This document shows, piece after piece, positions 4,758 to 63,836 of a DNA stretch of 63,836 nt. Position 1 is the stretch's first letter. The number at the start of each line of letters is the position of its first letter. The stretch is taken from positions 1-63,836 of the forward strand of contig CAYOMO010000001.1 in the NCBI GenBank assembly GCA_964405065.1, read 5' to 3'. The notes beneath the pieces were generated by a model, which was not told where the DNA came from, searched no databases, and saw nothing but the letters and a program-made list of their open reading frames with translations. Source of the DNA: an uncultured Gammaproteobacteria bacterium (GTDB lineage Bacteria > Patescibacteriota > Microgenomatia > Daviesbacterales > UBA10151). Both the position numbers and the translations under genes were made by a program.

Positions 4758-6009
4758 ATTGTCGAATTTTAAAATTTGGTGGTTGCTTATCCCCGCTGTT
4801 ATGGTGAGGGTGTTTTTAGCGATGTCCACTTTTCATCCGGATGTTCGGGCTTTTAATCTGGCTGGTGATCTTATTGGTGGAGGTAATATTACAAATTTGT
4901 ATGATTATTTAGCTTCATGTACTGTGGATAATCCTTTAGTTAAAACATTTGGGGCTGATTTGTTTATTTATCCGCCACTGATTTATTTATTGCATGGAAT
5001 TTTTAATGTGTTTTTTTCATTTATTTTTGGAAAAGAAATAATGAATGGTTTTATGATCGAACAGGCATCATATTTTGGTAATTGGTTGTTTAATTTACAT
5101 TTGTTACTTCTTAAAATGCCATATTTTTTCTTTGATCTACCAGTTGTTTTTGCAATTACAAGTTTTTTTGAAAAAAAGCAGGAAAAAGTATGGGCAGCAC
5201 TTTTGTGGTTGTTTAACCCGGTTATTTTGTATTCAGGTTATATGATGGGGCAATTTGATCTGATTCCGGCTGTTTTAACTATTTATTCGCTTTGGTGTAT
5301 TAGAAAGAAAAAGCTTTATTTTGCGGCACTTTTGTTGGGATTGGCTGCTGCATTTAAACTCTACCCACTTTTTCTTGTTGTTCCTTTTATTATAATTGGT
5401 AAAAACTGGAAAGAAAAAATTTATTTAGGTAGTTTGGCTCTTTTGCCTTATATCCTGTCAATTATTCCTTTTCTTTCATCACATGGATTTAGAACATATG
5501 CTTTGATGGCAGGTCTGACTCAAAAAACATTGTATGCTCAAATACCAGTCTCCGGTGGTGAAAGTTTAATTTTATTTCCCTTATTACTTTTGGTGATGTA
5601 TTTTTATTTTTGGTTTTATGACAGATCAGTCGAAAGAATATGGCAAAGATGGTTTGTAGTTTTACTTAGTTTTTTCATTTTTACTCACTTTCATCCCCAA
5701 TGGCTAAGTTGGTTGGCACCATTTTTAGTTATCGAAGTAGTGAGTTTCCGATTTAAAACAGTATTACCTCATGTTTTTTTGGCGTTAAGTTTTATTGGTA
5801 TGATCTTTATGTTTGATCCTTCATTGACAGTGAAAATTTTTGCGCCACTTTTTCCGGCTTTGTATGCACTTCCAGGAACTTGGCAAGAATTGGGAATTAG
5901 AGTTGATGAGGTCTATATCAGAAGTATTTTACAGACTGTCTTTGCTTCAGCTTGTGTTTTTTATATTTATTTGTATTTTGCAAAGAAGTTACCTGAAAAA
6001 GCAGAATAA
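4750..6009 (+). CDS. Polytopic membrane protein, DUF2029/GT87-like GT-C candidate
   Basis: 419 aa with ~10 hydrophobic segments. LFNPVILYSGYMMGQFDLIPAV followed by LLGLAAAFKLYPLF mirrors LINPAVIYVASVWGQTDLIQNL and FAGIALMTKHTILL in the next gene (shared NPxxIxxxxxxGQxDLI motif). Overlaps the upstream gene by 8 nt. Confidence 0.55.
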   Translation: MIRLSNFKIWWLLIPAVMVRVFLAMSTFHPDVRAFNLAGDLIGGGNITNLYDYLASCTVDNPLVKTFGADLFIYPPLIYLLHGIFNVFFSFIFGKEIMNGFMIEQASYFGNWLFNLHLLLLKMPYFFFDLPVVFAITSFFEKKQEKVWAALLWLFNPVILYSGYMMGQFDLIPAVLTIYSLWCIRKKKLYFAALLLGLAAAFKLYPLFLVVPFIIIGKNWKEKIYLGSLALLPYILSIIPFLSSHGFRTYALMAGLTQKTLYAQIPVSGGESLILFPLLLLVMYFYFWFYDRSVERIWQRWFVVLLSFFIFTHFHPQWLSWLAPFLVIEVVSFRFKTVLPHVFLALSFIGMIFMFDPSLTVKIFAPLFPALYALPGTWQELGIRVDEVYIRSILQTVFASACVFYIYLYFAKKLPEKAE

Positions 6010-15247: not shown

Positions 15248-16899
15248 GAAAAATTTCTAATTTAGTTTTAATAACTATTTTGTTATTTGGATTTTCGTTG
15301 AGGTTTTATAGTGTACAGAATATTCCGCCTGGATTGACGTGGGATGAAGCAGCTTTGGGATACAATGCTTATTCTTTGTTAAAAACAGGGAGAGATGAAT
15401 ATGGGGCTGTTTTACCGCTTAACTTAAAGTCTTTTGGTGATTATAAACCGGCTTTGTATGCCTATTTGGATATCCCTTTTGTGGCTTTATTTGGACTCAA
15501 TGAGTTAGCGGTCAGATTACCTTCTGTGTTGGCTGGGGTAATCTTTATTTGGCTCATGTATGCCCTGATGCAGGAACTATTTGCGAAAAAATGGCTCTCA
15601 ATCAGTACTGCCTTGTTTGCCGCTATCTCTCCACTATCACTCCATTTTTCCAGAGGCGCGTGGGAGTCAAATGTGGCAACAGTTTTAAATCTAGGTGGAG
15701 TTTATTTATTTTTAAAAGCTCAGAGAAATAACTGGTGGTATCTGGGAAGCGGAGTATTATTTGGTTTGTCTTTATTAACTTACCAGGGTTCGCGATTGTT
15801 TGTATTACTTTTACTTTTAGGATTATTTCTTATTTATAGAAAATCAATTAAATATTCATCGAAAGGATTTTTAAGCGGGGTCGTTTTTTTGGGATTGATC
15901 GGAGTCGTTTTGGGAATTACATTATTTGTTTTCGGTCAGGGTGACAGGCTTTCAACTACCAATTTTTTTGCTTATACCAGGTCTGATGACCAGATCAATC
16001 AGATTATCAAAGAAGATGGCTTGGAAAAAGGTTCCGTCCCGTATGAATTTCTGCATGGTGAATGGTTTGCTTATGTTCGTGGTTTAGTTGAAAGATATGT
16101 TGTTTACTATTCGCCAAATATCTTGTTTGTGACAGGTGATTATAGCCCTCGTCATAAAGTGGCTGATATGGGTGTTTATCCTTATTATTCCTTGATCTTA
16201 ATGGCTTTGGGAGTGTATTTTTTTGTCACATTTAAATCCAAAGGAGTGGCTGTTTTAGTGTTGTATTTATTGATAGCTCCTCTGCCGGCTGTTTTATCAC
16301 GTGATCTGATTAATATGGTCAGAGCGCTAAATCTAGTTGTTCCTTTTACCATGCTTGAAGCAGCTGGCTTTTATCTATTATTTATAAAACTATACAAATC
16401 ACTGATTGGTAAAATGGTTTTGGTCGGGGTAATTGGATTTATTATGGCAAATTATTCAATGTATTTAGATAGTTATTTTGTTCATACTCCAGTTCAGTAT
16501 TCACAAGGCTATTTGTATGGGTATAAGCAAAGCTTGGGGCTCGCTAACGCTCGTAATAAAGATTTGTGGGATTCATACGATAAAGTAGTTATGACAGATA
16601 CCTATGGACAGCCATATATTTATTACTTATTTTATAGTCAATATGACCCGGCTAAATATCAGCAGCAGGCCGAGCTTGATCGAAATAGTGTGGATGTTGG
16701 GAGTGTGAAACAGATTGATAATATTGAGTTCCGGCATATTTTTTGGCCGGGAGACAGAGGGATTAAAAATAGTTTATTTATCGGTACACTGGAAGAGTTG
16801 CCAGATCAGGATGTGAAGCCTTTTGCTGAGTTTAATCTCAAAGGGGATATTCACTTTTTGGATAATCAGCATGCATTTAGGGTGGTGGAAACAAAATGA
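15244..16899 (+). CDS. PMT/ArnT-like GT-C glycosyltransferase, paralog 5 of 6
   Basis: ATGA overlap with the upstream gene. Carries WDEAALGYNAYSLLKTGRDEYG, FGDYKPALYAY, NELAVRLPSVLAG, IAPLPAVLS and YGQPYIYYLFYSQYDPAKYQ. Confidence 0.88.
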   Translation: MRKISNLVLITILLFGFSLRFYSVQNIPPGLTWDEAALGYNAYSLLKTGRDEYGAVLPLNLKSFGDYKPALYAYLDIPFVALFGLNELAVRLPSVLAGVIFIWLMYALMQELFAKKWLSISTALFAAISPLSLHFSRGAWESNVATVLNLGGVYLFLKAQRNNWWYLGSGVLFGLSLLTYQGSRLFVLLLLLGLFLIYRKSIKYSSKGFLSGVVFLGLIGVVLGITLFVFGQGDRLSTTNFFAYTRSDDQINQIIKEDGLEKGSVPYEFLHGEWFAYVRGLVERYVVYYSPNILFVTGDYSPRHKVADMGVYPYYSLILMALGVYFFVTFKSKGVAVLVLYLLIAPLPAVLSRDLINMVRALNLVVPFTMLEAAGFYLLFIKLYKSLIGKMVLVGVIGFIMANYSMYLDSYFVHTPVQYSQGYLYGYKQSLGLANARNKDLWDSYDKVVMTDTYGQPYIYYLFYSQYDPAKYQQQAELDRNSVDVGSVKQIDNIEFRHIFWPGDRGIKNSLFIGTLEELPDQDVKPFAEFNLKGDIHFLDNQHAFRVVETK

Positions 16900-39784: not shown

Positions 39785-40810
39785 ATGAAAAAACATGAGC
39801 GCACATTTTTAATAAACGATACTTTAACTTCAGTAGTGGTAATTATTGATGATATTAATGTTTCCTTAATTGAAACTGTTAAAAAAATAGACCAAGTAAT
39901 TCAAAAAAAAACTCATCTTTATGAAATTGTATGTATTGACAATACTGGATATATTCTCGAGCAAGATCCGGTTTTATCTAGAATCCAGAAACAAAATTCA
40001 AATGTACGCTCCATAATTTTATCCAAAAAATATTCCAGAGACGTTGCAATCACGGTTGGGGTTGATTCGTGTATTGGGGATTACGTTATTTTTTATGATA
40101 CAAAGACTGACAGCCCTCAAGTATTACATTTATTTATTGATAATTTGGAAAAAGGATTTGATGTTGTAATTGGCAATCCTAAAAATCAGCAGGCAAGTTT
40201 GAGTTTGTTCAGTCGATTATTCTTGTCTATGGTAACTGCATTCTCTCGACAGGGGTATTTTTATCGTTCAAATCATTCACTGGCTTTAAATCGACGGGCT
40301 GTTCTCTCAATCACTCGCACTAGAAGAAAAAATCGCAACTTTACCTATTTGAATTCACTGATTGGACTAAAAAGACAGATCATCTCCTATGAAGGATTAT
40401 CCAATCAGTCTGCTAATGATCCTCGAACAGGTCTTTTTACAATTTTAAAAGTTGTTTTAGATGATGTGATATCCAATTCATTTAAGCCAATCAGATGGAT
40501 AAGTTTACTGGGTATGCTGGGAAGTACTTTGTTTTTATTGTATATTTTAGGCGTGGTTATCTTAATAATTGTCTTCCAAATGACTTGGATAGCCCCCCAG
40601 GGATGGATTAGTTTGGCGACAGTCATGGGAGCATTGTTTTTTTTACTTTTTTCTTTGCTGACTATTATGTCAGAATATTTAATTCGAATTATGGATGAGT
40701 CACGCAATGAACCACTTTATTTTATATCTCAGGAAAAGGATGGTTCTCACCGGATTTTTAAAAACCGCCAAAAAAGTCTGCAAAAAAAACTTAATATAAT
40801 AAAAATATGA
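39785..40810 (+). CDS. GtrB/CsbB-like membrane-anchored GT2 (polyprenyl-phosphate sugar synthase type) with atypical DxD region
   Basis: 341 aa. A GT-A domain followed by two C-terminal TMs and SEYLIRIMDESRNEPLYFI. This matches the GEYIGR..E...RP.YII ending of GtrB as I recall it. IVCIDNTG replaces the usual DDGS.D motif, and FYDTKTDSP sits where D-x-D-LQDP is expected. Confidence 0.6.
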   Translation: MKKHERTFLINDTLTSVVVIIDDINVSLIETVKKIDQVIQKKTHLYEIVCIDNTGYILEQDPVLSRIQKQNSNVRSIILSKKYSRDVAITVGVDSCIGDYVIFYDTKTDSPQVLHLFIDNLEKGFDVVIGNPKNQQASLSLFSRLFLSMVTAFSRQGYFYRSNHSLALNRRAVLSITRTRRKNRNFTYLNSLIGLKRQIISYEGLSNQSANDPRTGLFTILKVVLDDVISNSFKPIRWISLLGMLGSTLFLLYILGVVILIIVFQMTWIAPQGWISLATVMGALFFLLFSLLTIMSEYLIRIMDESRNEPLYFISQEKDGSHRIFKNRQKSLQKKLNIIKI

Positions 40811-52875: not shown

Positions 52876-53609
52876 TTTTTCGTTAGAACTATTGTTATAA
52901 ACATTCCAAAATGATTGTTTAAGGGTGAAAGAATTTTTTCCAGCCATTTAAATCCTTGATAAGTGAAAGTCGGGACTAACTGTCTTTTTTTTAATCCACC
53001 AGACAACAGGTACATTATAGGTGTGTGAGAAGATAATACTGTTACTGGTAGGTGGGGATATTTAACTTGATAAATGGCTTGGTCTCTTTTAAAGATTACC
53101 CCAGGAAGGGCATTATTGGCATCAGATAGTGGTCCTTTGCCAGTAACTTTCCATTTAGTGATTTTTTCATCAAAATCTTCATAGTGAAAATTTTTGTAAA
53201 CAAATCTCCCCCAAAAAGAGTTATTTGGTTCAATCATAATGACTTTGCCCCCTTTTTTTAGCACTCTATTAAATTCATTTAGAGCTTTGGTCGGGTTTTT
53301 GATGTGATGAAAAGTATTTAATAAGTATATAGCAGAAAGAGTATTTTTTTTAAAAGGCAATTTTTCAGCATTAATTACTCGGTCACACATTGGCAATTTA
53401 ATAACATCTGACGTAATCACATCGGGGATAAAATCTTTAATAAATCCCGCACCTGACCCTAATTCGAGTCTTTTTCCATGGGGTAGATTTTGCGAATGAG
53501 ACTGGAAAATAGTATAGAAATCTGAATAGACATTTTTAAATATCTTTTTTTGTTGAATTATTTTTACACTATCAATAGTTGTTTGAGGGAGATCTAAAAG
53601 GTTAGCCAT
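52872..53609 (-). CDS. Class I SAM-dependent methyltransferase (Methyltransf_11 type)
   Basis: 245 aa. Carries RLELGSGAGFIKDFIP, IYLLNTFHHIKNP and LKKGGKVIMIEPN. Its stop shares the TTAA at 52872-52875 with the convergent gene. Confidence 0.78.
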   Translation of the reverse strand: MANLLDLPQTTIDSVKIIQQKKIFKNVYSDFYTIFQSHSQNLPHGKRLELGSGAGFIKDFIPDVITSDVIKLPMCDRVINAEKLPFKKNTLSAIYLLNTFHHIKNPTKALNEFNRVLKKGGKVIMIEPNNSFWGRFVYKNFHYEDFDEKITKWKVTGKGPLSDANNALPGVIFKRDQAIYQVKYPHLPVTVLSSHTPIMYLLSGGLKKRQLVPTFTYQGFKWLEKILSPLNNHFGMFITIVLTKN

Positions 53610-54693
53610 TTATTTTCTTTCTAAGCTTTAAGAAAGGTGTTTCTATGAAGCTATAGGAAATATATCCAACAACTCCGGTTAATACAAGTGAAAGTATAGC
53701 TTGTGGAAAATCTGTTTTGTAAACCATATGAGTTATAAAATAGATAATTTTATTTACTTCATAGTGCCAAATATAAATAGAATAGGAAAATAAACTTATT
53801 AGAGTAAAAGTGACATATATCTTTTTTTCCTGTGTGAGCTTTTTTATCAAGTAGACATTTTGAAAGAAAAAGCTGATGAGAAGAGACATCCATAATCCGA
53901 TCCAGGTAAATCCAAATGTCTTTAAAACAACTGAATTGTTTAATTCCCCAGTTATGTCTAGAAAATTGAAATATATACTTGAAAAAGTAAGAATGGCGAT
54001 CGCGATTAAAACCAGTTTCAAACTATTTAGTTTGATAAAAATTTTAGGCTTTTTTATTTTTATGAGAGCGAGTATGACACCGATTAATAAAGGATCGAAA
54101 TGAAATAATACTGATTTTCTTAGATCTGGATCAAAACTTGGATTTAAAAACCAAACATAGATAAAGCGGATCAAGATGAGAAATCCAACAACTAAAATAA
54201 GTGAACTAAGTAAGCGTTTTTTTGTCCATTTAAATTGACACAATCCGTAAATCAACCAAGGTAAGAAGAGGTAAAACCATTCTTCGATGGCCAAACTCCA
54301 GGAAACCGCAAAAAAACCATGGGGGTCGGGGAAAAGATTTTGCAAAAAAAATAAATATGACCAGTGAATTTGTAGTTTTTGATAATGAATGGCATCAATA
54401 AACTGAAAGACAATAAAGGCACAGTAATACAAAGGAAGTGTCCTAAACCACCGATTAAAATAAAATTTCTTAAAAGATGGTTTGCTTGTTTCTAGATCAA
54501 GTTTGAAAACTATTCCGCCAATTAGAAATCCACTTAAAACAAAAAATAATTCGACACCCAAAATTCCAAATATAGAATTGGGTTTGTAAATATTTAAAAT
54601 TCCCCAATCAAGATGCTCAATAAAGACCATAAGTATGGCTATAGCTCTTAGGATATCTAGACCAAAATTTCTGGTTTTGGAAAGCCCAAACAT
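53602..54693 (-). CDS. Acyltransferase family 3 membrane O-acyltransferase
   Basis: 363 aa with ~10 TMs. N-terminal NFGLDILRAIAILMVFIEH with the conserved His. Overlaps the downstream methyltransferase gene by 8 nt. Confidence 0.8.
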   Translation of the reverse strand: MFGLSKTRNFGLDILRAIAILMVFIEHLDWGILNIYKPNSIFGILGVELFFVLSGFLIGGIVFKLDLETSKPSFKKFYFNRWFRTLPLYYCAFIVFQFIDAIHYQKLQIHWSYLFFLQNLFPDPHGFFAVSWSLAIEEWFYLFLPWLIYGLCQFKWTKKRLLSSLILVVGFLILIRFIYVWFLNPSFDPDLRKSVLFHFDPLLIGVILALIKIKKPKIFIKLNSLKLVLIAIAILTFSSIYFNFLDITGELNNSVVLKTFGFTWIGLWMSLLISFFFQNVYLIKKLTQEKKIYVTFTLISLFSYSIYIWHYEVNKIIYFITHMVYKTDFPQAILSLVLTGVVGYISYSFIETPFLKLRKKING

Positions 54694-56545: not shown

Positions 56546-59500
56546 ATGAAAGCTTTTTCTGACTTCAGATATTTTCTGGTAATTGCTTTAATTAGTTTTT
56601 TGACGGTATCTATTTGGTTTAGGCATGGATATCAGCTGGGTACTGCTGAAGGTGGACTCCCATTTAATAATTTACAGCGTCATGCTGAAATTTTTCGTTG
56701 GGCTTGGGGGGATGGAGCGATGGGAAATTCAACCAGTTTTTTGGTCGCCTCATATCCGACATATTTTTTCCTATCTCAGTTTGAAAAGATCGGTGTGTCT
56801 GGTTTTATTATTGAGGCAACTGTTTTTTGGTTCATTCTAACTACTTCTGGAATTGGTATATTTCTGATTGCCCGAAGAATAGCAATTATTACGGGAGGTT
56901 TTTCTTTATTTGCAGTGTTTTTTTATTGGTTATCACCATTCGTATTGGTAAATGTTTGGAACCGGTTTTTATACAATCACATTTTTTTTCTTGCTCTTTT
57001 ACCACTTTGTTTTTATACCTATTGGAGAGGAATTCAGCAAAAAAAATATTCTTATCTTTTTTTGACCGTTTTGATTACGTTTTTTTATAGTTATGCGCTT
57101 ACCGCATTGGCTCTAACTACGCTACTTTTTATTGTATTTGGCTTTGTGAGTATTTATTGGATAGTTATTTTCAAAGCCCGTAATTTAAAGTTTATTTTTT
57201 TGTATAATTTACTGTTTGGATTCACTTTTGGTTTGGTTCACGCTTGGTGGCTGTCTCAGCTATTATTTATCGGTTCGTCGGCAAATTTTGCGGAGTCGGT
57301 TAGTTCATTTTTCTCTACGGAGGGCAATATCAGTGGTTTAACTGAAATAAGTCGGAAGCTGGGATCATTTATTGATCTGACGCGATATATCCATTTCAAT
57401 TTTTTCTATGATCATTCGGCTCCCTGGTCAGAGGCTTTAAGTTCACAATTGGCTTTTATTTTAAATTCAATCATTTTATTTGTTACCTTCATTGGTATTG
57501 TATTGGGTCGGAAAAATAAAGTGATATTGTTTTTTGCTTTATTCTTTTTGTTGTCTTTTTTCTTATCCAAAGGAAATAGTCCACCTTTTGGGGAATTGTA
57601 TACCTACTTTTTTGTTAAGATTTCTTTCTTGCAAATCTTTCGAAATCCCATCGAAAAAATTGGTTTAATTTCAGTTTTTTGCGGGTCACTAATAACTGCC
57701 TATGCTCTTGATGGTTTGCATCAGCGATATATCGCAAATTATACACAGAGATTTGAAGGTCGAAATTATTTACTGATCTTTCCATTACTATTGATTGGCA
57801 TTTTTTGGGGCTGGCCATTTTTTTCTGGAATTATGTTTTCTGTCTATAAAAATACGGCTGGAGAGGTAGCTTTATATCAAAGTTTAGTCCCTAGCTATTA
57901 CAAAGAGGCTGATATTATGATGTCTCAGGATGCTAGTATTTCCAGATTTCTGGCGTTGCCTTTGATGGGGGAAGGTATTACCTATGAATGGCCTATTCAT
58001 TATAGCGGAATTGATATTTATAGTACCCTTTTTCATAAACAAAATATTGCTCTTAATACAACGATTCCTTTTTATAATCAGGTAATTTATCAATTGGTTA
58101 GTTATCAATTAAAGCCAGATCTGGTCTACTTTTTGCCATATCTTGCAGTGGATCACATTCTGTTACGACGTGACGTAGCTTTTCAAGAACGTGCTTATCC
58201 CGATCCTTCACAAACTGAAGAGAATTTAAAACAACTTGAGAGTAAACAGTTAGTTAAAAAAGAGGTCGATTTTGGAGAGTTGTCGCTTTATCAGGTAGAG
58301 AAGTCTCTAAATTGGGGGAAATTTTATACTACCAACCAAATTGTTTTTACGAATGGAGTAGATTTTGCCAAAATGACAGATGGTGTTTCTGAACACAAAA
58401 GGGTATATATCAATCCTTTAATGTTTAAATCATTGCCAATTGACCCGATGGAAATACAGCTTTTTCCGGATAAGATAACATCGTACAATTGGTTGAAACC
58501 ATATCAATCTTATAACGATCAAAATTTATACGATAAATTAGTATATGTGAAGCATTCGCCCGATGATGTGATTTACCCATTTGTTAGATCCAAAGAATTA
58601 TTAACATCACTATTATATGCTGACTATCCAAAATGGGTTTTATTTAATATTAATTTATTAGGTAAACGAGCAGTTGAAATTTGTCGATATGATACAAATG
58701 CAGTTCAACCATCTAAAGAAAATAAGTTGGTCGAAAATTATCAAGCGGAGTTTCAGAATTTACAGGACCATATTCAACGGATTTCAAATGAGAATCGAGC
58801 ATTAAAGAGTGAAATATTTCAGTCTGTTATTACTCAGGCATTACTTTTGGATCGTTGTCAAAAAATAAATATAAATTTTTTCTTAGATTTTTTTGCTGAA
58901 GTCGGTATTATTTCGCCTTTTTCCAAACAGATCAGTTATGAAAATTTAACTGATGTCTCGTATCAGGTGCCTCAGTCAGGAAGTTATCTGGTAAAGAATG
59001 ATTTTGGCCAAGATTCAGATCAAATTCCAATTATTTTGACCCAGGGGAATTATAAAAAGCAGTTTTTAGAGGATGATACTTACACTAAACAAGTTGTGGC
59101 AGAATTTTCTGATTTTACGATTGATTCTAAATGGGTAGATTCTGAGCCGATAGAAATTGAGGATTATAATGCGCTGTATTCAGTAAAAGTTGATTATCAG
59201 ATTCAGTCAGGTGATTTTATGGCAATTTATGCCAAGCAAGATAACGATCCAAAATCTCAACCACGTTATTTAAATGAGTTACCAGCTCAGAATACTCAGT
59301 TTTCCATTGAGTTTTCTCCTTCATTGGGGGCAAAATATTTTCAGATTGGGATAACTGGTGATAAAAATGAATATTGTAAAGATAAATGCTCTGCACATCA
59401 AAATTCGCTTAAACTTTATGTGAAAAAGTTGGAGATTATAAAAAAAACATTTCAGTTGCCACATTTTGTTTTAAAGCAGAAAAAACCGATTCAGGAATCG

Positions 59501-59812
59501 TTGATAAGTTGGAGTAAGAAATCGCCAGTTGAATATGAGATAACAGTTAACAAAACTGATTCTCAGCCTGAGATTTTGGTATTTTCTGAATTGTTTGGTC
59601 AAGGATGGGAAATTCAAGGACAATCTTTCCAGCATATTTTAGTAAATGGATTTGCAAATGGTTGGATTTTAGATAAAGCAGGAACTTTTAAAACAACAGT
59701 CTATTATTTACCTCAAAGAAATCTTGATTTGGGTTATCAAATATCATTTGGAGCTTTATTCGCAACGATAAGTATTCTTTGGGGAGTAAAAAAATATGAA
59801 AAACATCGTTAA
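56546..59812 (+). CDS. Giant polytopic membrane protein, AftD/DUF3367-like GT-C candidate (paralog B)
   Basis: 1088 aa. Carries SIWFRHGYQLGTAEGGLPF and IFRNPIEKIGLISVF. A ~650-aa soluble region follows, then a C-terminal NGFANGWIL plus a TM. Confidence 0.6.
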   Translation: MKAFSDFRYFLVIALISFLTVSIWFRHGYQLGTAEGGLPFNNLQRHAEIFRWAWGDGAMGNSTSFLVASYPTYFFLSQFEKIGVSGFIIEATVFWFILTTSGIGIFLIARRIAIITGGFSLFAVFFYWLSPFVLVNVWNRFLYNHIFFLALLPLCFYTYWRGIQQKKYSYLFLTVLITFFYSYALTALALTTLLFIVFGFVSIYWIVIFKARNLKFIFLYNLLFGFTFGLVHAWWLSQLLFIGSSANFAESVSSFFSTEGNISGLTEISRKLGSFIDLTRYIHFNFFYDHSAPWSEALSSQLAFILNSIILFVTFIGIVLGRKNKVILFFALFFLLSFFLSKGNSPPFGELYTYFFVKISFLQIFRNPIEKIGLISVFCGSLITAYALDGLHQRYIANYTQRFEGRNYLLIFPLLLIGIFWGWPFFSGIMFSVYKNTAGEVALYQSLVPSYYKEADIMMSQDASISRFLALPLMGEGITYEWPIHYSGIDIYSTLFHKQNIALNTTIPFYNQVIYQLVSYQLKPDLVYFLPYLAVDHILLRRDVAFQERAYPDPSQTEENLKQLESKQLVKKEVDFGELSLYQVEKSLNWGKFYTTNQIVFTNGVDFAKMTDGVSEHKRVYINPLMFKSLPIDPMEIQLFPDKITSYNWLKPYQSYNDQNLYDKLVYVKHSPDDVIYPFVRSKELLTSLLYADYPKWVLFNINLLGKRAVEICRYDTNAVQPSKENKLVENYQAEFQNLQDHIQRISNENRALKSEIFQSVITQALLLDRCQKININFFLDFFAEVGIISPFSKQISYENLTDVSYQVPQSGSYLVKNDFGQDSDQIPIILTQGNYKKQFLEDDTYTKQVVAEFSDFTIDSKWVDSEPIEIEDYNALYSVKVDYQIQSGDFMAIYAKQDNDPKSQPRYLNELPAQNTQFSIEFSPSLGAKYFQIGITGDKNEYCKDKCSAHQNSLKLYVKKLEIIKKTFQLPHFVLKQKKPIQESLISWSKKSPVEYEITVNKTDSQPEILVFSELFGQGWEIQGQSFQHILVNGFANGWILDKAGTFKTTVYYLPQRNLDLGYQISFGALFATISILWGVKKYEKHR

Positions 59813-60155
59813 ATATTTCAGACAAAATAAAATAAAAAAAATAATGGTCATTTTGTTTTTATTGATTCTTGGTATTAATTATATTTATGGTTACAGATAT
59901 TCAATCCCTTTAATTGACAATTTGGTTTATAAAAACAGTTACTATCCTTTGGTTTTTTTATGGATCGGATTGGTCTGGTGTTGGAAATTATCAGAAAAAT
60001 TTTTGTTTAAAATCGGTTTTATATTATTTTTTTTCTCCAGTTTTTATCAATTGATTGATAAACGAATTGTTGCTGAAATATTAATGAGTTACTGTCTATT
60101 AGTTTTTTTAACTGCTACGATATTATCAATTAAAAAGAGTATTTCAAATGAATAG
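59796..60155 (+). CDS. Small four-TM membrane protein, unknown function
   Basis: 119 aa. Four hydrophobic segments (IMVILFLLILGINYIYG, YYPLVFLWIGLVWCW, FKIGFILFFFSSFYQL, ILMSYCLLVFLTATILSI). Overlaps the upstream gene by 17 nt. Confidence 0.6.
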   Translation: MKNIVKYFRQNKIKKIMVILFLLILGINYIYGYRYSIPLIDNLVYKNSYYPLVFLWIGLVWCWKLSEKFLFKIGFILFFFSSFYQLIDKRIVAEILMSYCLLVFLTATILSIKKSISNE

Positions 60156-60327
60156 AATAGTCCTGTTGTTTGCTTTAATATTTGTTTTGCATTTATTTGC
60201 AGCTATTTTTTTGGTCTTAACCAACCATCATGGTTGGCTTTATCCGATTTTTAGAAATATTTTTTACGGAACTATTTTAATCACTTTAATCGATATTTTT
60301 TATTTATTTACAACTTCTAAAAAATGA
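60148..60327 (+). CDS. 59-aa two-TM mini-protein (not in the supplied ORF track)
   Basis: Hand translation gives MNRIVLLFALIFVLHLFAAIFLVLTNHHGWLYPIFRNIFYGTILITLIDIFYLFTTSKK*. The ATG overlaps the upstream TAG by 8 nt, and its TGA forms an ATGA junction with the next gene. It exactly fills the gap between the two neighbours. Confidence 0.5.
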   Translation: MNRIVLLFALIFVLHLFAAIFLVLTNHHGWLYPIFRNIFYGTILITLIDIFYLFTTSKK

Positions 60328-62951
60328 AAATCTTTGTGATTGTTTTATTACTATTTTGGATAGGACTTCTACCATTTTGGAAAGCCGCTCATGACTTGCC
60401 CTACTCTTCGCAATCTTTTGTTGCAAGTCAATTACAGCTACCAACTGCTTGGAATGCAGTTGGTGGTGTTTTTGGTCAAAACCAGTTGGCAACTTTATGG
60501 TCCTGGCCAAATAATACTGTCTATTCACTAGGAGCTTCGATAGGTATTAGTTTTAATTGGTTAATCCCTTTACTGGGCATATTACCGGTTTTAATAATTG
60601 GTTTTTGGGGGATGTATTTTTTTTCCGGCATTTTTATGGCTAGTCGAGATGCTCGGTTGATAGCGGCGCTTTTTTTTCTGACAAATTCCTATATTTTGCT
60701 AGTTATCGACGGTGGGCAACTTTTATGGGGTTTGGCTTATGGAATTATTCCCTGGTGTTTAGTTACATTCTATCGTTACATCAACCAAAAGCGGCATGTT
60801 GGCTGGTTTTTATTCTGCTTTATTCTGCTTAGTTTTGCTGATCTCAGAGCGATTTATCTTTTAGGAATTATTTTAGTGATCTATTTATTAATAGAGATTT
60901 TAAGAAAACCACAAATTGGTTATTTGGTGTTTTTTATTAGGGTATTACTGGCTGGTTTATTAGCTGTTTTATGTTTAGTCCTATTGCATGCTTACTGGTT
61001 ATTACCACTTTTGATGTCGCAATCTTCAGTATTGCCTTCAAATTTATCAATTTCTTCGGAGGCAGATTTTTTATCTTTTATTAGTTTGAGTCATGCTTTT
61101 GTTTTACAACAGCCACACTGGTATTTAAATATCTTTGGTCAACTGCAACCTATTAGATTGGAGTTTATCTGGATACCTCTGCTGATTATTCCAATTTTTA
61201 TAAATAAAAGATGGTTGAATGTTCAGTTGCTGGTAATTCTGTTGGTTGGAGTATTTTTGGCGAAGGGAAATCAACCGCCTTTGGGGAGTTTATATGCACA
61301 TTTACTAAATTACATTCCGGGATTTTTTTTATTTCGAGATTCAAGTAAATTTTTTATTCTTATTGCTTTGGTTTATGCTGTTTCAGTTGGATTGTTGGTT
61401 CAGCAATTGGAAGATGCGAGGGGGCGTTTTAAAAAGTATTCCCGTTTGTTAGTCGGAGTTGTAGTAGCGCTTGTCGTTTTGATGGTTTGGCCTACTTTTA
61501 CTGGTCAAATGACAGGTTTGCTTGGTTTTTCTAAGCAAGTAGCTGAATATCAGCAGCTCGAGCAAATTTTAAAAACTGACTCATCAGAAGGTCGGGTATT
61601 GTGGATTTCTTCTAAACCACCGCTAGGGTATATGGATCAGTCAAATGTAGCCATAAATGCCGTTGATTTGATAGGTCTTCGACCTTTTAGTACTGGAATC
61701 AGGGGGACTTATGAAACACTCAACTTTTTGCGAGAAGCTTCTTATTCTGGACAGTTGTTACAAATTTCTGGAATAAAAAAGCTGGTTTATGCTTTTCCGG
61801 ATCCCAATAAAAAATACAAAGTAGATGAACAAGATTATTATGATCTGTTCTTGCAGCAATTGCAGGGTAGAGACTGGGTTTCTCCTACTGAGAACAGTCA
61901 GGTTTTAAATCTTCAAAAACCACAGCCTTTATTTCATATTCCACAAAATTATTATTTGGTAGTTGGTTCTGATGCTCTATATGGTGAGTCCACTCTATCT
62001 GCCCAGCAGAATCTTGTCAACAATGGATTAATTTTTGTAGAAGAAGAAATCTCTCCTGATCTCAATACAAATCTATTGAAACATCCAGTACTTTTATATA
62101 AAAAAGAACTTCTTGATGTAGCTATGCAGCTAGTTGATCCAAAGTACTTTTATTTTCCAAGCCAAATACTGAATTCATCTCCAAACCAAACTGGCTGGTG
62201 GAAAAGAGATACCGGTGACTTTTTATCATTTCATGATTTTTTAAAACAGAAATATCAGATCGAGAATACTGATTTTGACTTGAGAGGAGGATGGGCAGTA
62301 TCTGAAGGTCAAAACTCTCTAACAATTTCGAAAAAAGGAACACCAAATGATATTGTTCTAATCAGGCTGTTAGAAAGTAGTAGAAGTGGTGAATTGAGTG
62401 TTGAAGCAGACAATCAGAGTATTAAAAAGCTAAATACTAGTCAGGGGAAAGATCAAGTTCAGTGGCGAATTGTCGGATCAGCCGAAAAAGATTTTTCCCA
62501 GCTGACTTTAAAAACTACTGGTGATATACATTTGGTGAATGCTATTGCGATAGTCCCTAAGGCCATATTTAATCAAAGGTTACACCAGGTTGAAAGCATA
62601 CCAAAATTCTATACTAAGCTTGGAGAAAATGATGCTAATGACTCTCAAGCAAAAGTTGTTTTTGAAAAATTAAATGATGATCAGTATCAGCTTGAAGTCA
62701 CGAATCTAAGCAAACCTTCTCTGATCGTTTTTAATCAAAGATATGATCCGAAATGGACAATAAATGGTCAGCCAGCAATTCCAGTTTATTCAATTTTTAA
62801 TGGATTTTTTATTGATAAAAATGGTACATATTTAGTCGAATATAGCCCACATCGATACCTCTTTTTAGGCGGAATGATTAGTACTGGGAGTTTACTGCTT
62901 TTAATAGGCAGTGTAGTGTATAGATATTATGCAGATACGAGAAAAAATTAA
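60324..62951 (+). CDS. Giant polytopic membrane protein, AftD/DUF3367-like GT-C candidate (paralog C, more divergent)
   Basis: 875 aa and multi-TM. Carries LFRDSSKFFILIALVY. A ~430-aa soluble region follows, then YDPKWTINGQPAIPVYSIFNGFFI plus a C-terminal TM. Confidence 0.55.
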   Translation: MKIFVIVLLLFWIGLLPFWKAAHDLPYSSQSFVASQLQLPTAWNAVGGVFGQNQLATLWSWPNNTVYSLGASIGISFNWLIPLLGILPVLIIGFWGMYFFSGIFMASRDARLIAALFFLTNSYILLVIDGGQLLWGLAYGIIPWCLVTFYRYINQKRHVGWFLFCFILLSFADLRAIYLLGIILVIYLLIEILRKPQIGYLVFFIRVLLAGLLAVLCLVLLHAYWLLPLLMSQSSVLPSNLSISSEADFLSFISLSHAFVLQQPHWYLNIFGQLQPIRLEFIWIPLLIIPIFINKRWLNVQLLVILLVGVFLAKGNQPPLGSLYAHLLNYIPGFFLFRDSSKFFILIALVYAVSVGLLVQQLEDARGRFKKYSRLLVGVVVALVVLMVWPTFTGQMTGLLGFSKQVAEYQQLEQILKTDSSEGRVLWISSKPPLGYMDQSNVAINAVDLIGLRPFSTGIRGTYETLNFLREASYSGQLLQISGIKKLVYAFPDPNKKYKVDEQDYYDLFLQQLQGRDWVSPTENSQVLNLQKPQPLFHIPQNYYLVVGSDALYGESTLSAQQNLVNNGLIFVEEEISPDLNTNLLKHPVLLYKKELLDVAMQLVDPKYFYFPSQILNSSPNQTGWWKRDTGDFLSFHDFLKQKYQIENTDFDLRGGWAVSEGQNSLTISKKGTPNDIVLIRLLESSRSGELSVEADNQSIKKLNTSQGKDQVQWRIVGSAEKDFSQLTLKTTGDIHLVNAIAIVPKAIFNQRLHQVESIPKFYTKLGENDANDSQAKVVFEKLNDDQYQLEVTNLSKPSLIVFNQRYDPKWTINGQPAIPVYSIFNGFFIDKNGTYLVEYSPHRYLFLGGMISTGSLLLLIGSVVYRYYADTRKN

Positions 62952-63836
62952 CCAGCTTGTTTTACTCATTCAAACTAAAACTTTTAGACAAAGTCTTTTG
63001 ACGGTATCAACTGTTGGAATAAATGGTATTTTGGGAGCTATCTTTTTTATCTGTATTGCGCGAATGTTAGGGCCCTCTGAGTATGGGGTTTTTGCTTTAG
63101 CAATTGCTTCATTAACACTGATAGCTGACATTGCTGATTTTGGTACCAATACCGGTATTGTTAGATTTGTGCCAGGTTTAATTAAACATCAACCTGCAGA
63201 TGCTTATCGGATGCTGAAGCTGAGTTTGGAGATAAAAGCAGTGGTTTGGTGTTTGGTGTTGCTGGTGGGATTTTTCCTGATTCCATTTATTGTTATCACT
63301 ATTTTTGGGAAAGTTGAGCTAATTTTTCCACTTCAGTTGAGTTTAATTGGAGTGGGCGGAGCAATGTTTTATACTTATACCCAGTCAGTACTCCAGGCTT
63401 TTGAAAAATATCGTTTATGGAGTTTTTTAAATCTTTTTACCAATGGTTTACGGCTTTTCATTACATTGGTTTTGAGTGTTCTAGTTGGTTTGAATGTATT
63501 TAGCGGTTTGCTGCTTTATATCAGTATTCCTTTTATTGGATTTTTAATTGGTTGTAGTTTGTTGCCAATTCGTCAGATTGTATCAGCCCAGAAAGAGACA
63601 AATTTATTCAAAGATTTTCGTTCTTACAACAGTTATATTGCCATCTTTACTTTAATTGCGGCTTTTTCGAACAGAATTGATATGTATCTTGCCGCCAAGT
63701 TACTAAACCCTGATGAGGTTGGTATCTACGGTGCTGCTGTGCAGCTGAATTCATTTATTCCACAAATAATGGGCGGGCTAGGAGTGGTAGTAGCTCCAAA
63801 GTTTGCTTCTTTTACCACGCAACATCAAATGATTGG
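62929..63836 (+). CDS. Wzx/MOP-superfamily flippase, 3'-truncated by the window edge (not in the supplied ORF track)
   Basis: ATG at 62929, frame open to the end of the window. MQIREKINQLVLLIQTKTFRQSLLTVSTVGINGILGAIFFICIARMLGPSEYGVFALAIASL carries the same LGPS(D/E)YG N-terminal motif as the flippase at 21651-22916. Overlaps the upstream gene by 23 nt. Confidence 0.7.
   Translation, partial: MQIREKINQLVLLIQTKTFRQSLLTVSTVGINGILGAIFFICIARMLGPSEYGVFALAIASLTLIADIADFGTNTGIVRFVPGLIKHQPADAYRMLKLSLEIKAVVWCLVLLVGFFLIPFIVITIFGKVELIFPLQLSLIGVGGAMFYTYTQSVLQAFEKYRLWSFLNLFTNGLRLFITLVLSVLVGLNVFSGLLLYISIPFIGFLIGCSLLPIRQIVSAQKETNLFKDFRSYNSYIAIFTLIAAFSNRIDMYLAAKLLNPDEVGIYGAAVQLNSFIPQIMGGLGVVVAPKFASFTTQHQMI

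What the first reader, a model, noticed from the sequence alone, without database searches (positions are those of the whole stretch)
59796..60327. Two tiny membrane proteins (119 aa with 4 TMs; an untracked 59-aa ORF with 2 TMs) wedged between the giant GT-C genes
Seen in sequence:
- The 119-aa ORF has four hydrophobic segments.
- An ORF missing from the track (60148-60327, MNRIVLLFALIFVLHLFAAIFLVLTNHHGWLYPIFRNIFYGTILITLIDIFYLFTTSKK) has two.
- Both are chained to their neighbours by overlaps of 17 nt, 8 nt and an ATGA junction, which argues for co-translation with the GT-C genes.

Established knowledge: GT-C systems that use polyprenyl-phosphate sugars need a flippase for the donor. Known examples are small 4-TM proteins: GtrA/GtcA, and the ArnE/ArnF pair of SMR-like subunits.

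Inference: these mini-proteins could be a small lipid-linked-sugar flippase or accessory subunits of the giant transferases. I see no GtrA signature motif, so this rests only on size, topology and context.
Basis: partly seen in the sequence, partly recalled or inferred. Interest (0 to 1): 0.6.

Follow-up and report, generated by a model that had tools for sequence, protein, structure and literature searches.

The report
Small membrane partners of AftD-like glycosyltransferases
Two tiny membrane-protein genes (one missed by every gene caller) are real, conserved, and each is most likely the dedicated partner of one neighbouring giant sugar-transferase in a group of tiny uncultured bacteria, rather than a lipid-sugar flippase.

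Summary
ORFs 59796-60155 (119 aa, four helices) and 60148-60327 (59 aa, helical hairpin) exist, with the stated 17-nt, 8-nt and ATGA overlaps. Both are kept in frame in every syntenic relative and are under purifying selection (omega 0.08 and 0.19 at dS about 1).

Neither resembles GtrA or SMR/ArnE-F. Pfam and NCBIfam give nothing, hhalign against the genome's own GtrA domain gives 0.2%, and Foldseek finds nothing in PDB or BFVD.

The locus is instead two juxtaposed two-gene modules:
- The 119-aa protein belongs to an undescribed "type A" family (hhalign 97.6%). Its members lie directly after long AftD-like giants; 15 of 18 long giants carry a coupled mini (type A or the unrelated type B), against 1.3% background.
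- The 59-aa protein belongs to an undescribed hairpin family with an NHxG(F/W) turn. All 17 true members examined lie directly before a short giant paralogue.
- In a tree of the giants, partner type follows giant clade.

Best reading (0.6): each mini is a co-translated membrane subunit of its cognate GT-C. A speculative extension (about 0.3): the 119-aa protein supplies in trans the essential C-terminal four-helix bundle (TM13-16) of mycobacterial AftD. The flippase reading stays possible (about 0.15). No physical interaction was tested here.

The parts
56546..59812 (+). GT-C1: a 1088-aa AftD-family GT-C glycosyltransferase ('long giant', clade A). It has an N-terminal multi-TM GT-C core, a large extracytoplasmic domain, and one C-terminal TM with a short basic cytoplasmic tail (KKYEKHR).
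   Evidence: Weak PF11847 hit in the window protein; PF11847 is on record for the orthologues. The family profile hits only AftD structures 6W98/6WBX/6WBY, E 3e-7, positions 26-573 against 33-570. Architecture. C-terminal tail.
59796..60155 (+). mini119: a 119-aa, four-helix, N-in/C-in membrane protein and a member of an undescribed 'type A' mini family. It is the cognate partner of GT-C1. Conserved features are an outward-facing Tyr/Asn-rich loop (N28 Y29 G32 N42 Y45 N47 Y50) and an A-E motif (E94) at the outer start of the last helix.
   Evidence: ORF. omega 0.077. Only 10 close proteins and 4 clusters among 1.84e9 representatives. Alignments. AF2 model. hhalign 97.6% to the post-giant minis of other genera. 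Topology.
59796..59812 (+). 17-nt overlap between the end of GT-C1 and the start of mini119, with a GGGGAG Shine-Dalgarno-like motif about 9 nt upstream of the ATG.
   Evidence: Sequence. The same 17-nt overlap is present in G001.
60148..60327 (+). mini59: a 59-aa helical hairpin that was not annotated, and a member of an undescribed hairpin family with an (N/D/S)-H-x-G-(F/W/V) turn. It is the cognate partner of GT-C2.
   Evidence: ORF. omega 0.19. Conserved but uncalled in L013-L016. AF2 hairpin. hhalign 88.9% to the hairpins of other genera. Every true member examined sits directly upstream of a short giant.
60148..60155 (+). 8-nt overlap (ATGAATAG) between the end of mini119 and the start of mini59.
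   Evidence: The equivalent ATGAATAA overlap is present in L013 and L014.
60324..60327 (+). ATGA stop/start junction between mini59 and GT-C2, with no Shine-Dalgarno motif. This fits termination-reinitiation coupling.
   Evidence: Hairpin-to-giant distances in other genomes run from -28 to +71 nt.
60324..62951 (+). GT-C2: an 875-aa 'short giant', a paralogue of GT-C1 with the same layout (multi-TM core, a soluble domain of about 450 aa, one C-terminal TM).
   Evidence: BLASTP against GT-C1 gives 5e-8 over the TM core plus 37% identity over the C-terminal domain. Weak NF053599 MmpA hit; MmpA is itself homologous to the AftD N-terminus (PMC8698533). It falls in clade H, support 100/100.
62929..63834 (+). 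Context: a Wzx-like MOP-family flippase (Polysacc_synt), truncated by the end of the window.
   Evidence: PF01943, E 1e-18. The position is conserved in all syntenic loci.

Best explanation
The locus is two adjacent two-gene modules. Module 1 is the long AftD-family GT-C (56546-59812) followed by the 4-TM protein mini119. Module 2 is the 2-TM hairpin mini59 followed by the short AftD paralogue (60324-62951).

Each mini is a dedicated integral-membrane subunit of its cognate giant. It is made in step with the giant through overlapping stop and start codons, and it packs against the giant's transmembrane domain.

The conserved polar motifs are predicted to lie at the outer face of the membrane. 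These are the Tyr/Asn-rich loop and the A-E motif of mini119, and the NHxGW turn of mini59. GT-C active sites and the phosphate head-groups of polyprenyl-linked donors sit at that face. The minis therefore most likely stabilise the enzyme's membrane domain, or shape donor or acceptor access to it.

Shown: both genes are real, the families exist, the pairing rule holds, partner type follows giant clade, and there is no kinship with GtrA or SMR.

Inferred: physical association, the outer-face role, and the further idea that mini119 is the trans-encoded counterpart of AftD's C-terminal four-helix bundle.
For: 1. Real genes: omega is 0.077 and 0.186 at dS of about 1. Both are in frame in all syntenic loci.
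2. Family membership by profile: mini119 family against the post-giant minis of six other genera, hhalign 97.6%, E 3.5e-12. Among 788 six-frame small ORFs the mini119 HMM ranks exactly those positional equivalents first. Mini59 family against the NHxGF hairpins, 88.9%, E 2.4e-6.
3. Pairing: 15 of 18 long giants (1019-1249 aa) in 12 genomes have a coupled 76-137-aa 3-4-TM ORF downstream. In this genome only 7 of 554 large ORFs do.
4. Class-wide, type A is found in 36 of 251 genomes, and about 15 small-ORF hits lie within -16 to +75 nt of a giant's conserved C-terminal domain.
5. Hairpins: 6 cases plus 11 of 11 further true hits lie -28 to +71 nt upstream of a short-giant homologue.
6. Partner type follows giant clade in a tree built from the GT-C core alone. 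Clade A is 8/8 type A. Clade B is 5 type B plus 1 with none. Clade H is 6 of 7 with a hairpin. The clade of the third paralogue is 4/4 with none. All these clades have at least 95/96 support, and paralogues from one genome sort by clade.
7. Fusions: the type-A module is fused to extracytoplasmic IPT/TIG or beta-rich domains, mostly still placed after a giant. A 182-aa protein ending in a hairpin lies between a giant and a short giant.
8. Topology is N-in/C-in, with the conserved motifs outside.
9. Precedent: AftD's own TM13-16 bundle is a separate membrane domain and is essential (10.1101/2019.12.22.885152). Small membrane partners are predicted for mycobacterial GT-Cs such as MptB, and a multi-protein Pmt complex was recovered by pulldown (10.64898/2026.07.15.738315).
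Against: - No physical interaction was tested.
- Pairing by gene order and shared phylogeny would also arise for any tightly co-functioning pair, including a donor-specific flippase.
- The pairing is not absolute. Three long giants lack a mini. G002, in the same genus, has a shortened 80-aa type A and no hairpin.
- The hairpin family link rests on a probability of 88.9% from shallow alignments of hydrophobic sequences.
- No sequence similarity to AftD TM13-16 was detected, and Foldseek did not return 6W98.
Confidence: 0.6

Rival explanations
1. Small lipid-linked-sugar flippase. One or both minis, perhaps as a hetero-oligomer, translocate the polyprenyl-phosphate sugar donor used by the adjacent GT-Cs. 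They would be a functional analogue of GtrA/GtcA/Rv3789 or ArnE/ArnF without being their homologue.
For: - Size and 4-TM N-in/C-in topology match GtrA and SMR.
- The neighbours are polyprenyl-phosphate-sugar-dependent GT-Cs.
- The genome has only one GtrA domain, fused to a GT2 on another contig, and no SMR, yet it has several GT2 synthase-like genes. A donor flippase may therefore be 'missing'.
- There is a conserved Glu (E94) near a membrane boundary.
- Clade-specific pairing could reflect donor-specific flippases.
Against: - No Pfam or NCBIfam hit to GtrA, SMR or EamA at E<=1.
- hhalign gives 0.2% against the genome's own GtrA domain.
- No structural match in PDB, which should include the SMR proteins, or in BFVD, which should include phage GtrA.
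- TM1 carries no acidic residue.
- The shared type-A core is only 3 TM, and many members are 76-98 aa.
- The module is fused to extracytoplasmic TIG or beta domains, which is not known for flippases.
- The one giant subfamily that sits beside a GT2 gene has no mini.
- Genomes with several giants carry one mini per giant rather than one per locus.
Confidence: 0.15
2. Pathway-linked but not stably bound membrane factors. Examples would be regulators of chain length or localisation, acceptor-lipid binders, or membrane-insertion or assembly chaperones that act transiently on the giants' C-terminal anchor.
For: - The comparative data that support partnership show only co-inheritance and co-expression, not a stable complex.
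- Fusions to TIG or beta-sandwich domains would also fit a glycan-handling or length-sensing role.
- G002 manages without a hairpin.
Against: - Overlapping-codon coupling is kept across a whole class, which suggests matched stoichiometry.
- Partner type is tied strictly to giant clade.
- Precedents exist for stable or predicted small subunits of GT-Cs.
Confidence: 0.2
3. One or both ORFs are not genes. In particular, the uncalled 59-aa ORF would be a chance open frame in AT-rich intergenic DNA.
For: - No gene caller annotated the 59-aa ORF in any of the contigs examined.
- It has only a weak Shine-Dalgarno motif.
Against: - The frame is kept in all relatives at dS of about 1.4, with omega 0.19.
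- 12 columns are invariant across the close family.
- Recognisable homologues occupy the same position in several families of the class.
- The stop/start overlaps on both sides are conserved.
Confidence: 0.03

Closest known systems
C-terminal four-helix bundle (TM13-16) of mycobacterial AftD (PDB 6W98/6WBX; Tan et al. 2020, 10.1101/2019.12.22.885152)
   Same: AftD is the only solved relative of the gene upstream of mini119. In AftD the order is GT-C core, periplasmic domains, a single TM12, a cytoplasmic loop, then a separate four-helix membrane bundle with a cytoplasmic C-terminus; truncating the bundle abolishes function. Here GT-C1 ends just after its single C-terminal TM with a cytoplasmic tail. 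The overlapping next gene encodes an N-in/C-in four-helix protein.
   Different: - It is encoded as a separate gene in every genome examined; no fused form was found.
- No sequence similarity to AftD was detected, and there was no Foldseek hit.
- Many type-A members have only 3 TM.
- AftD's bundle binds the phosphopantetheine arm of ACP. Whether that applies here is unknown, although the genome does encode an ACP-like protein.
GtrA/GtcA/Rv3789 family (PF04138), the small 4-TM component of three-component GT2 + flippase + GT-C glycosylation systems (reviewed in PMC8035078)
   Same: About 120 aa, four TM, and encoded beside a GT-C that uses a polyprenyl-phosphate sugar.
   Different: No HMM match. 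hhalign gives 0.2% against a true GtrA domain of the same genome. No structural match. The minis pair with particular GT-C clades rather than with the GT2 synthase.
Small membrane partners of GT-C enzymes: Ost4/Ost5 of eukaryotic OST, and the predicted MptB partners ML0614 (95 aa, 1 TM) and ML2271 (2 TM) in mycobacteria (10.64898/2026.07.15.738315)
   Same: The concept is the same: tiny membrane proteins that bind the TM domain of a GT-C and stabilise it, or flank its active-site entrance.
   Different: There is no homology. The phylum is different (Patescibacteria/Microgenomatia). Here the partner is encoded with overlapping codons next to its enzyme and has diversified in step with an expanded paralogue family. 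Association is inferred here, not demonstrated.
ArnE/ArnF and other SMR-type proteins (PF00893)
   Same: Small multi-TM proteins that could act as a pair of unequal subunits next to a GT-C (ArnT).
   Different: No PF00893 hit in these proteins or anywhere in the genome. No membrane-embedded Glu in TM1. No Foldseek match to SMR structures. Mini59 has only two TM.

Membership tests
GtrA/GtcA (PF04138) | Match to the family HMM at or above 26.1 bits | tested here: not met
   Neither mini hits PF04138 at E<=1, whereas the same model finds a true GtrA domain elsewhere in this genome at 87.8 bits.
GtrA/GtcA (PF04138) | Profile-level similarity to a bona fide GtrA domain | tested here: not met
   hhalign of the 13-sequence mini119 family against the GtrA domain of G000:C2 gives probability 0.2%.
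GtrA/GtcA (PF04138) | About 120 aa with four TM helices | tested here: met
   The AF2 model has four long helices, and the positive-inside count favours N-in/C-in. Mini59, with 2 TM, does not meet this.
GtrA/GtcA (PF04138) | Fold similarity to GtrA-type proteins | tested here: not met
   Foldseek against BFVD, which should hold phage GtrA proteins, gives a best E of 0.6 with no named GtrA. The PDB search gives a best E of 5. I do not know of a solved GtrA structure in the PDB (from memory).
GtrA/GtcA (PF04138) | Translocation of a polyprenyl-phosphate sugar | not testable with these tools
   This needs a reconstituted scramblase assay or genetics.
SMR / ArnE-ArnF (PF00893) | HMM match, and a conserved membrane-embedded Glu in TM1 | tested here: not met
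   No PF00893 hit. TM1 of the mini119 family has no D or E. No Foldseek hit to SMR structures.
AftD C-terminal four-helix bundle (TM13-16) | Follows an AftD-type GT-C core, a periplasmic domain and a single TM | tested here: met
   This is met in trans. GT-C1 is AftD-family and ends after one C-terminal TM. Mini119 starts 17 nt before the GT-C1 stop.
AftD C-terminal four-helix bundle (TM13-16) | Four helices with both ends cytoplasmic | tested here: met
AftD C-terminal four-helix bundle (TM13-16) | Detectable sequence or structural similarity to AftD residues of about 1285-1400 | tested here: not met
   The profiles A2 and A4 give no hit against all PDB sequences, AftD included, at E<=10. Foldseek did not list 6W98. 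A direct superposition could not be run.
AftD C-terminal four-helix bundle (TM13-16) | Part of the same polypeptide as the GT-C core | tested here: not met
   It is always a separate gene. There are no fused relatives among 1.84e9 representatives, among 18 long giants, or among 36 genomes with type-A hits.
AftD C-terminal four-helix bundle (TM13-16) | Binds the phosphopantetheine arm of acyl carrier protein | not testable with these tools
   The genome encodes a 76-aa PP-binding protein near rpmF and nusB, so the partner exists. Binding is untested.
Type-A mini family (defined here) | Profile similarity over the last three TMs, including the A-E motif, and a position directly after a long AftD-like giant | tested here: met
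   hhalign 97.6%, E 3.5e-12. HMM ranking. Position.
Hairpin mini family (defined here) | A 49-71-aa two-helix protein with an (N/D/S)HxG(F/W/V) turn, directly upstream of a short AftD paralogue | tested here: met
   hhalign 88.9%. H27 and G29 are invariant. Position holds in all 17 true members examined. AF2 hairpin.

The most novel reading that the evidence does not exclude
Mini119 and the type-A (and perhaps type-B) minis are the trans-encoded equivalent of AftD's essential C-terminal four-helix bundle. In this reading the AftD family exists in a naturally split form in Patescibacteria: the GT-C core, periplasmic domain and TM12 on one polypeptide, and the regulatory bundle on a co-translated mini-protein. 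The hairpin would be a further reduced two-helix derivative serving the short paralogues. This would make the bundle an autonomous, exchangeable module of GT-C enzymes.
Probability: 0.3. Interest if true: 0.7.

Novelty: new variant of a known kind. Interest (0 to 1): 0.55.

Why it matters
GT-C glycosyltransferases build cell envelopes across all domains of life, and evidence is growing that they work with small, easily overlooked partners.

This finding defines two small membrane-protein families with no Pfam or NCBIfam model. One of them was not annotated in any contig examined. Each family is tied to a subfamily of AftD-like enzymes across a class of ultra-small uncultured bacteria whose surface glycans are unknown.

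It gives concrete pairs to co-express and image. It also gives a natural two-piece system for asking what the essential but enigmatic terminal bundle of the tuberculosis-relevant enzyme AftD does. Finally, it shows that gene callers systematically miss a conserved 50-70-aa gene in these genomes.

Tried and rejected
- Pfam and NCBIfam scans of both minis gave only sub-threshold noise (Exosortase_EpsH 0.042, Phage_holin_2 0.011). Pfam scans of ten further family members likewise gave nothing.
- PDB sequence searches with single families and with the broadened profiles gave nothing.
- Foldseek against PDB and BFVD gave only generic helical bundles at E>=0.6.
- GtrA kinship is rejected. SMR kinship is rejected.
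- Fused giant+mini proteins, which would prove the split-AftD idea, were not found.
- A type A / type B relationship is rejected (0.2-2% probability).
- A hairpin / type-A relationship is only suggestive (about 70%) and is not claimed.
- The L086 182-aa protein was considered as a type-A-hairpin fusion. Its C-terminal hairpin is clear, but the N-terminal half matches type A only at iE 0.42, so this is left as possible.
- The search for related loci on genome contigs returned only the same-genus relative. On metagenome contigs it returned nothing, although JGI contigs do hold the family.
- Two candidate 'hairpins' upstream of other short giants (L035:1384, L045:5493) failed the profile test and were discarded as spurious.
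- One class-wide hairpin hit (L085, an unrelated 265-aa protein) was discarded as false.
Full report
**1. Observation**

They are chained exactly as described:
- 17 nt of overlap with the upstream 1088-aa gene (56546-59812).
- 8 nt of overlap between the two minis.
- An ATGA junction with the downstream 875-aa gene (60324-62951).

AlphaFold2 models mini119 as four long helices plus a short N-terminal helix (pLDDT 78, pTM 0.62). It models mini59 as a two-helix hairpin (pLDDT 80). Counting K+R over 13 family members gives 9.2 positive charges on the N-terminus, loop 2 and C-terminus, against 3.6 on loops 1 and 3. This favours an N-in/C-in topology with loops 1 and 3 outside.

**2. Both are real genes**

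A same-genus genome (G001) has the same five-gene order. There the 119-aa protein is 86-87% identical, and a 57-aa GTG-started counterpart of mini59 is 55-61% identical. Nei-Gojobori dN/dS is 0.077 for mini119 and 0.186 for mini59 at dS of about 1-1.4. The flanking genes give 0.055-0.11.

Four further metagenome contigs carry mini119 relatives at 62-70% identity, in the same synteny: carbamoyltransferase, AftD-like giant, mini119, a gap of about 160 nt, an 881-aa protein, then Wzx. No gene was called in that gap. In every case it holds a 56-58-aa ORF homologous to mini59, with the core T-(N/D)-H-x-G-W...F-R-N-I-F and the same overlapping junctions. Twelve columns are invariant.

**3. What they are not**

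- Neither mini hits GtrA, SMR or EamA models at E<=1 in Pfam, nor any NCBIfam model.
- The genome does contain one genuine GtrA domain (87.8 bits). It is the C-terminal part of a 394-aa GT2 on another contig. The genome has no SMR.
- hhalign of the mini119 family against that GtrA domain gives 0.2% probability.
- Foldseek of the mini119 model finds nothing below E=5 in the PDB. It finds nothing below E=0.6 in BFVD, where I expect phage GtrA proteins to be represented, and no named GtrA is listed.
- TM1 has no acidic residue, unlike SMR proteins.
- An exhaustive phmmer scan of 1.84 billion representatives found only four real clusters (37-65% identity, 118-142 aa), none fused to anything.

**4. 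What the neighbours are**

A profile of 13 long giants hits only mycobacterial AftD in the whole PDB (6W98, 6WBX/6WBY; E 3e-7). The match is colinear over the entire GT-C core, positions 26-573 against AftD 33-570. Orthologues carry PF11847.

The 875-aa protein is a paralogue. BLASTP gives 5e-8 over the TM core, and 37% identity over the C-terminal domain and anchor. Its weak NCBIfam hit is to MmpA, a protein reported to be homologous to the N-terminal 668 residues of AftD (PMC8698533).

Both giants end with one TM and a short basic cytoplasmic tail.

**5. The pairing rule**

I surveyed giants in 12 related genomes.
- Long giants (1019-1249 aa) are followed within -46 to +48 nt by a 76-137-aa 3-4-TM ORF in 15 of 18 cases.
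- Short giants of the GT-C2 type (875-894 aa) are preceded within -21 to +3 nt by a 52-65-aa hairpin.
- In this genome, only 7 of 554 large ORFs are followed by a coupled small ORF with at least 3 TM, and only 3 of 554 are preceded by a coupled 2-TM ORF.

The downstream minis fall into two sequence types.
- Type A includes mini119. hhalign of the mini119 family against the six far members gives 97.6%, E 3.5e-12, over TM2-TM4. Among 788 six-frame small ORFs, the mini119 HMM ranked exactly these positional equivalents first.
- Type B is unrelated to type A (0.2-2%).

The hairpins share an (N/D/S)-H-x-G-(F/W/V) turn with mini59 (hhalign 88.9%, E 2.4e-6). Hairpins align to the last two helices of type A at about 70% probability. 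That is suggestive only.

**6. Breadth**

Across 251 genomes of the class, type A is found in 36 genomes from many families. Of the 29 loci fetched, about 15 small-ORF hits lie -16 to +75 nt after a gene ending in the giants' conserved C-terminal domain. Three more hits lie roughly 370-480 nt from the giant; in the two whose gaps showed ORFs, the gap holds a GIY-YIG-like ORF.

The hairpin profile finds 13 of 251 genomes, concentrated in the window's own family. All 11 true extra hits lie -28 to +71 nt upstream of a short-giant homologue. The window's full order recurs in another family: type A, hairpin, short giant in G025. It recurs with type B in G201. In G239 a single 182-aa protein ending in a hairpin lies between a giant and a short giant.

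The two modules are found apart in other genomes, for example G019, G017 and G009. The 'wedged pair' in the window is therefore a juxtaposition of two modules, giant->mini119 and mini59->giant.

**7. Partner type follows giant clade**

I built a maximum-likelihood tree of 30 giants from the N-terminal 620 residues only.
- Clade A has 8 giants, all with type-A minis (support 95/96).
- A clade of 6 (100/100) holds the 5 giants with type-B minis (their own subclade 100/99) plus one giant with no mini.
- A clade of 7 short giants has 6 with hairpins (100/100).
- A clade of 4 short giants, including the window's third paralogue at 37116, has no mini at all (100/100).

Paralogues from one genome are distributed among these clades, so partner type is a property of the enzyme subfamily and not of the genome. 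Overall, 5 label changes are needed against a shuffled mean of 16.2 (0 of 200 shuffles as low). The caveat is that related sequences share labels.

The mini-less clade is the one whose window member sits beside a GT2 gene. That GT2 is divergent: PF00535 at 22.8 bits against a 23.3 cut-off. This is the opposite of what a gtrABC-like flippase arrangement would predict.

**8. Fusions**

In several genera the type-A module is fused to other domains:
- To two more TMs and a C-terminal IPT/TIG domain (four proteins; two pass the Pfam cut-off and two lie just below it).
- To an N-terminal beta-rich extracytoplasmic domain.

Most of these fusion proteins are still encoded right after a giant. The conserved A-E motif (E94 in mini119) persists in them. 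These partners point to a role at the outer face, next to the giants' carbohydrate-binding domains.

**9. Mechanism**

The best-supported reading (0.6) is that each mini is a co-translated, dedicated membrane subunit of its cognate AftD-like enzyme.

Its conserved polar motifs are predicted to lie at the outer membrane interface, where GT-C catalysis and donor head-group binding occur. These are the Tyr/Asn-rich loop 1 of mini119 (N28, Y29, G32, N42, Y45, N47 and Y50 invariant over 13 sequences), the A-E motif, and the NHxGW turn. This placement is inference from topology. No interaction was tested.

A sharper hypothesis (about 0.3) comes from the AftD structure paper (10.1101/2019.12.22.885152). 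In AftD the order is TM1-11, periplasmic domains, a single TM12, a long loop, then TM13-16 as a separate four-helix membrane domain. Both termini are cytoplasmic, and deleting the bundle abolishes function. GT-C1 stops a few residues after its TM12 equivalent, and the overlapping next gene encodes an N-in/C-in four-helix protein.

Against homology with that bundle:
- No sequence similarity to AftD was detected.
- No fused intermediate was found.
- Many type-A members have three helices.

AftD's bundle binds ACP. This genome does encode an ACP-like protein, so that function can be neither assumed nor excluded.

The flippase reading keeps about 0.15. It cannot be excluded by lack of homology alone, and the genome appears short of donor flippases. 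A looser pathway-factor reading keeps about 0.2, and 'not a gene' about 0.03.

**10. Comparison and novelty**

The concept of small membrane proteins serving GT-C enzymes is known. Examples are the OST subunits (from general knowledge) and the partners recently predicted for mycobacterial MptB and Pmt, with a multi-protein Pmt complex recovered by pulldown (10.64898/2026.07.15.738315).

What is new here:
- Two, arguably three, undescribed small-protein families.
- Their clade-by-clade pairing with an expanded AftD-like family in Microgenomatia.
- The systematic failure of gene callers to annotate the hairpin gene.

No paper in the library combines Patescibacteria with GT-C. I rate this a new variant of a known kind, interest 0.55.

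The scan's earlier notes supplied the Microgenomates placement and the pointers to the third paralogue and its neighbouring GT2. I checked the paralogue directly. I confirmed the GT2 only partly.

Noticed in passing
L033:12556-12897, L034:1416-1757 and 5154-5477, L035:12010-12342 and 15585-15923, L079:1647-1988: A third undescribed mini family ('type B', 107-113 aa, 4 TM, motif ..AN(W/F)xGS(L/F)GFG..). It follows a distinct clade of long AftD-like giants and is unrelated in sequence to type A.
   Followed up: partly
L061:1498-2577, L072:724-1824, L057:424-1815, L069:739-2562; L052:1492-2454, L056:730-1830: The type-A membrane module occurs fused to a C-terminal IPT/TIG domain, or to an N-terminal beta-rich extracytoplasmic domain with no Pfam model. 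Most of these are still encoded directly after a giant.
   Followed up: partly
L053:1949-2227 and L068:1965-2225: An 86-92-aa ORF with a GIY-YIG-like N-terminus (..YILxSxKDxxRYIGYT..) is inserted between a giant and its type-A mini in two genomes. It looks like a mobile insertion into the coupled pair. The identification is by eye only.
   Followed up: no
G000:C2:25309-26813 (L017:721-2225): The genome's only GtrA domain is fused to the C-terminus of a 394-aa GT2. It is followed 5 nt later by a 104-aa multi-TM ORF, with a GT-C-like 387-aa membrane protein convergent to it.
   Followed up: no
window 53602-54693 (-): An Acyl_transf_3 membrane acyltransferase lies two genes upstream of the AftD-like giant, and this is conserved in all syntenic loci. 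A 2026 preprint predicts that mycobacterial AftD binds the TmAT-family acyltransferase TmaT. The parallel is untested here.
   Followed up: no
L032:4437-7364 (G019:C1): One clade-A giant is interrupted by a single in-frame TAA, giving a 64-aa N-terminal piece and an 899-aa piece. Its type-A mini is intact. This could be a sequencing error, a pseudogene or recoding.
   Followed up: no
L031 (G002:C5:43000-56000): A same-genus genome has a syntenic locus with a shortened 80-aa, 3-TM type-A mini overlapping both giants, and no hairpin. One mini may serve both enzymes there.
   Followed up: partly
L018 record title (CAZWRN010000010.1): The public record of the same-genus MAG is titled 'uncultured Gammaproteobacteria bacterium'. 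Genome size, gene content and the scan's earlier notes point instead to Microgenomates (CPR), so the record is probably mislabelled.
   Followed up: no
G000:C7:27330-27560 (L087:1492-1722): A 76-aa PP-binding (ACP-like) gene lies next to rpmF- and nusB-like genes (identified by eye) in this reduced genome.
   Followed up: no
window 39785-40810: The 341-aa protein beside the third giant paralogue scores just below the GT2 cut-off (PF00535, 22.8 against 23.3 bits).
   Followed up: partly
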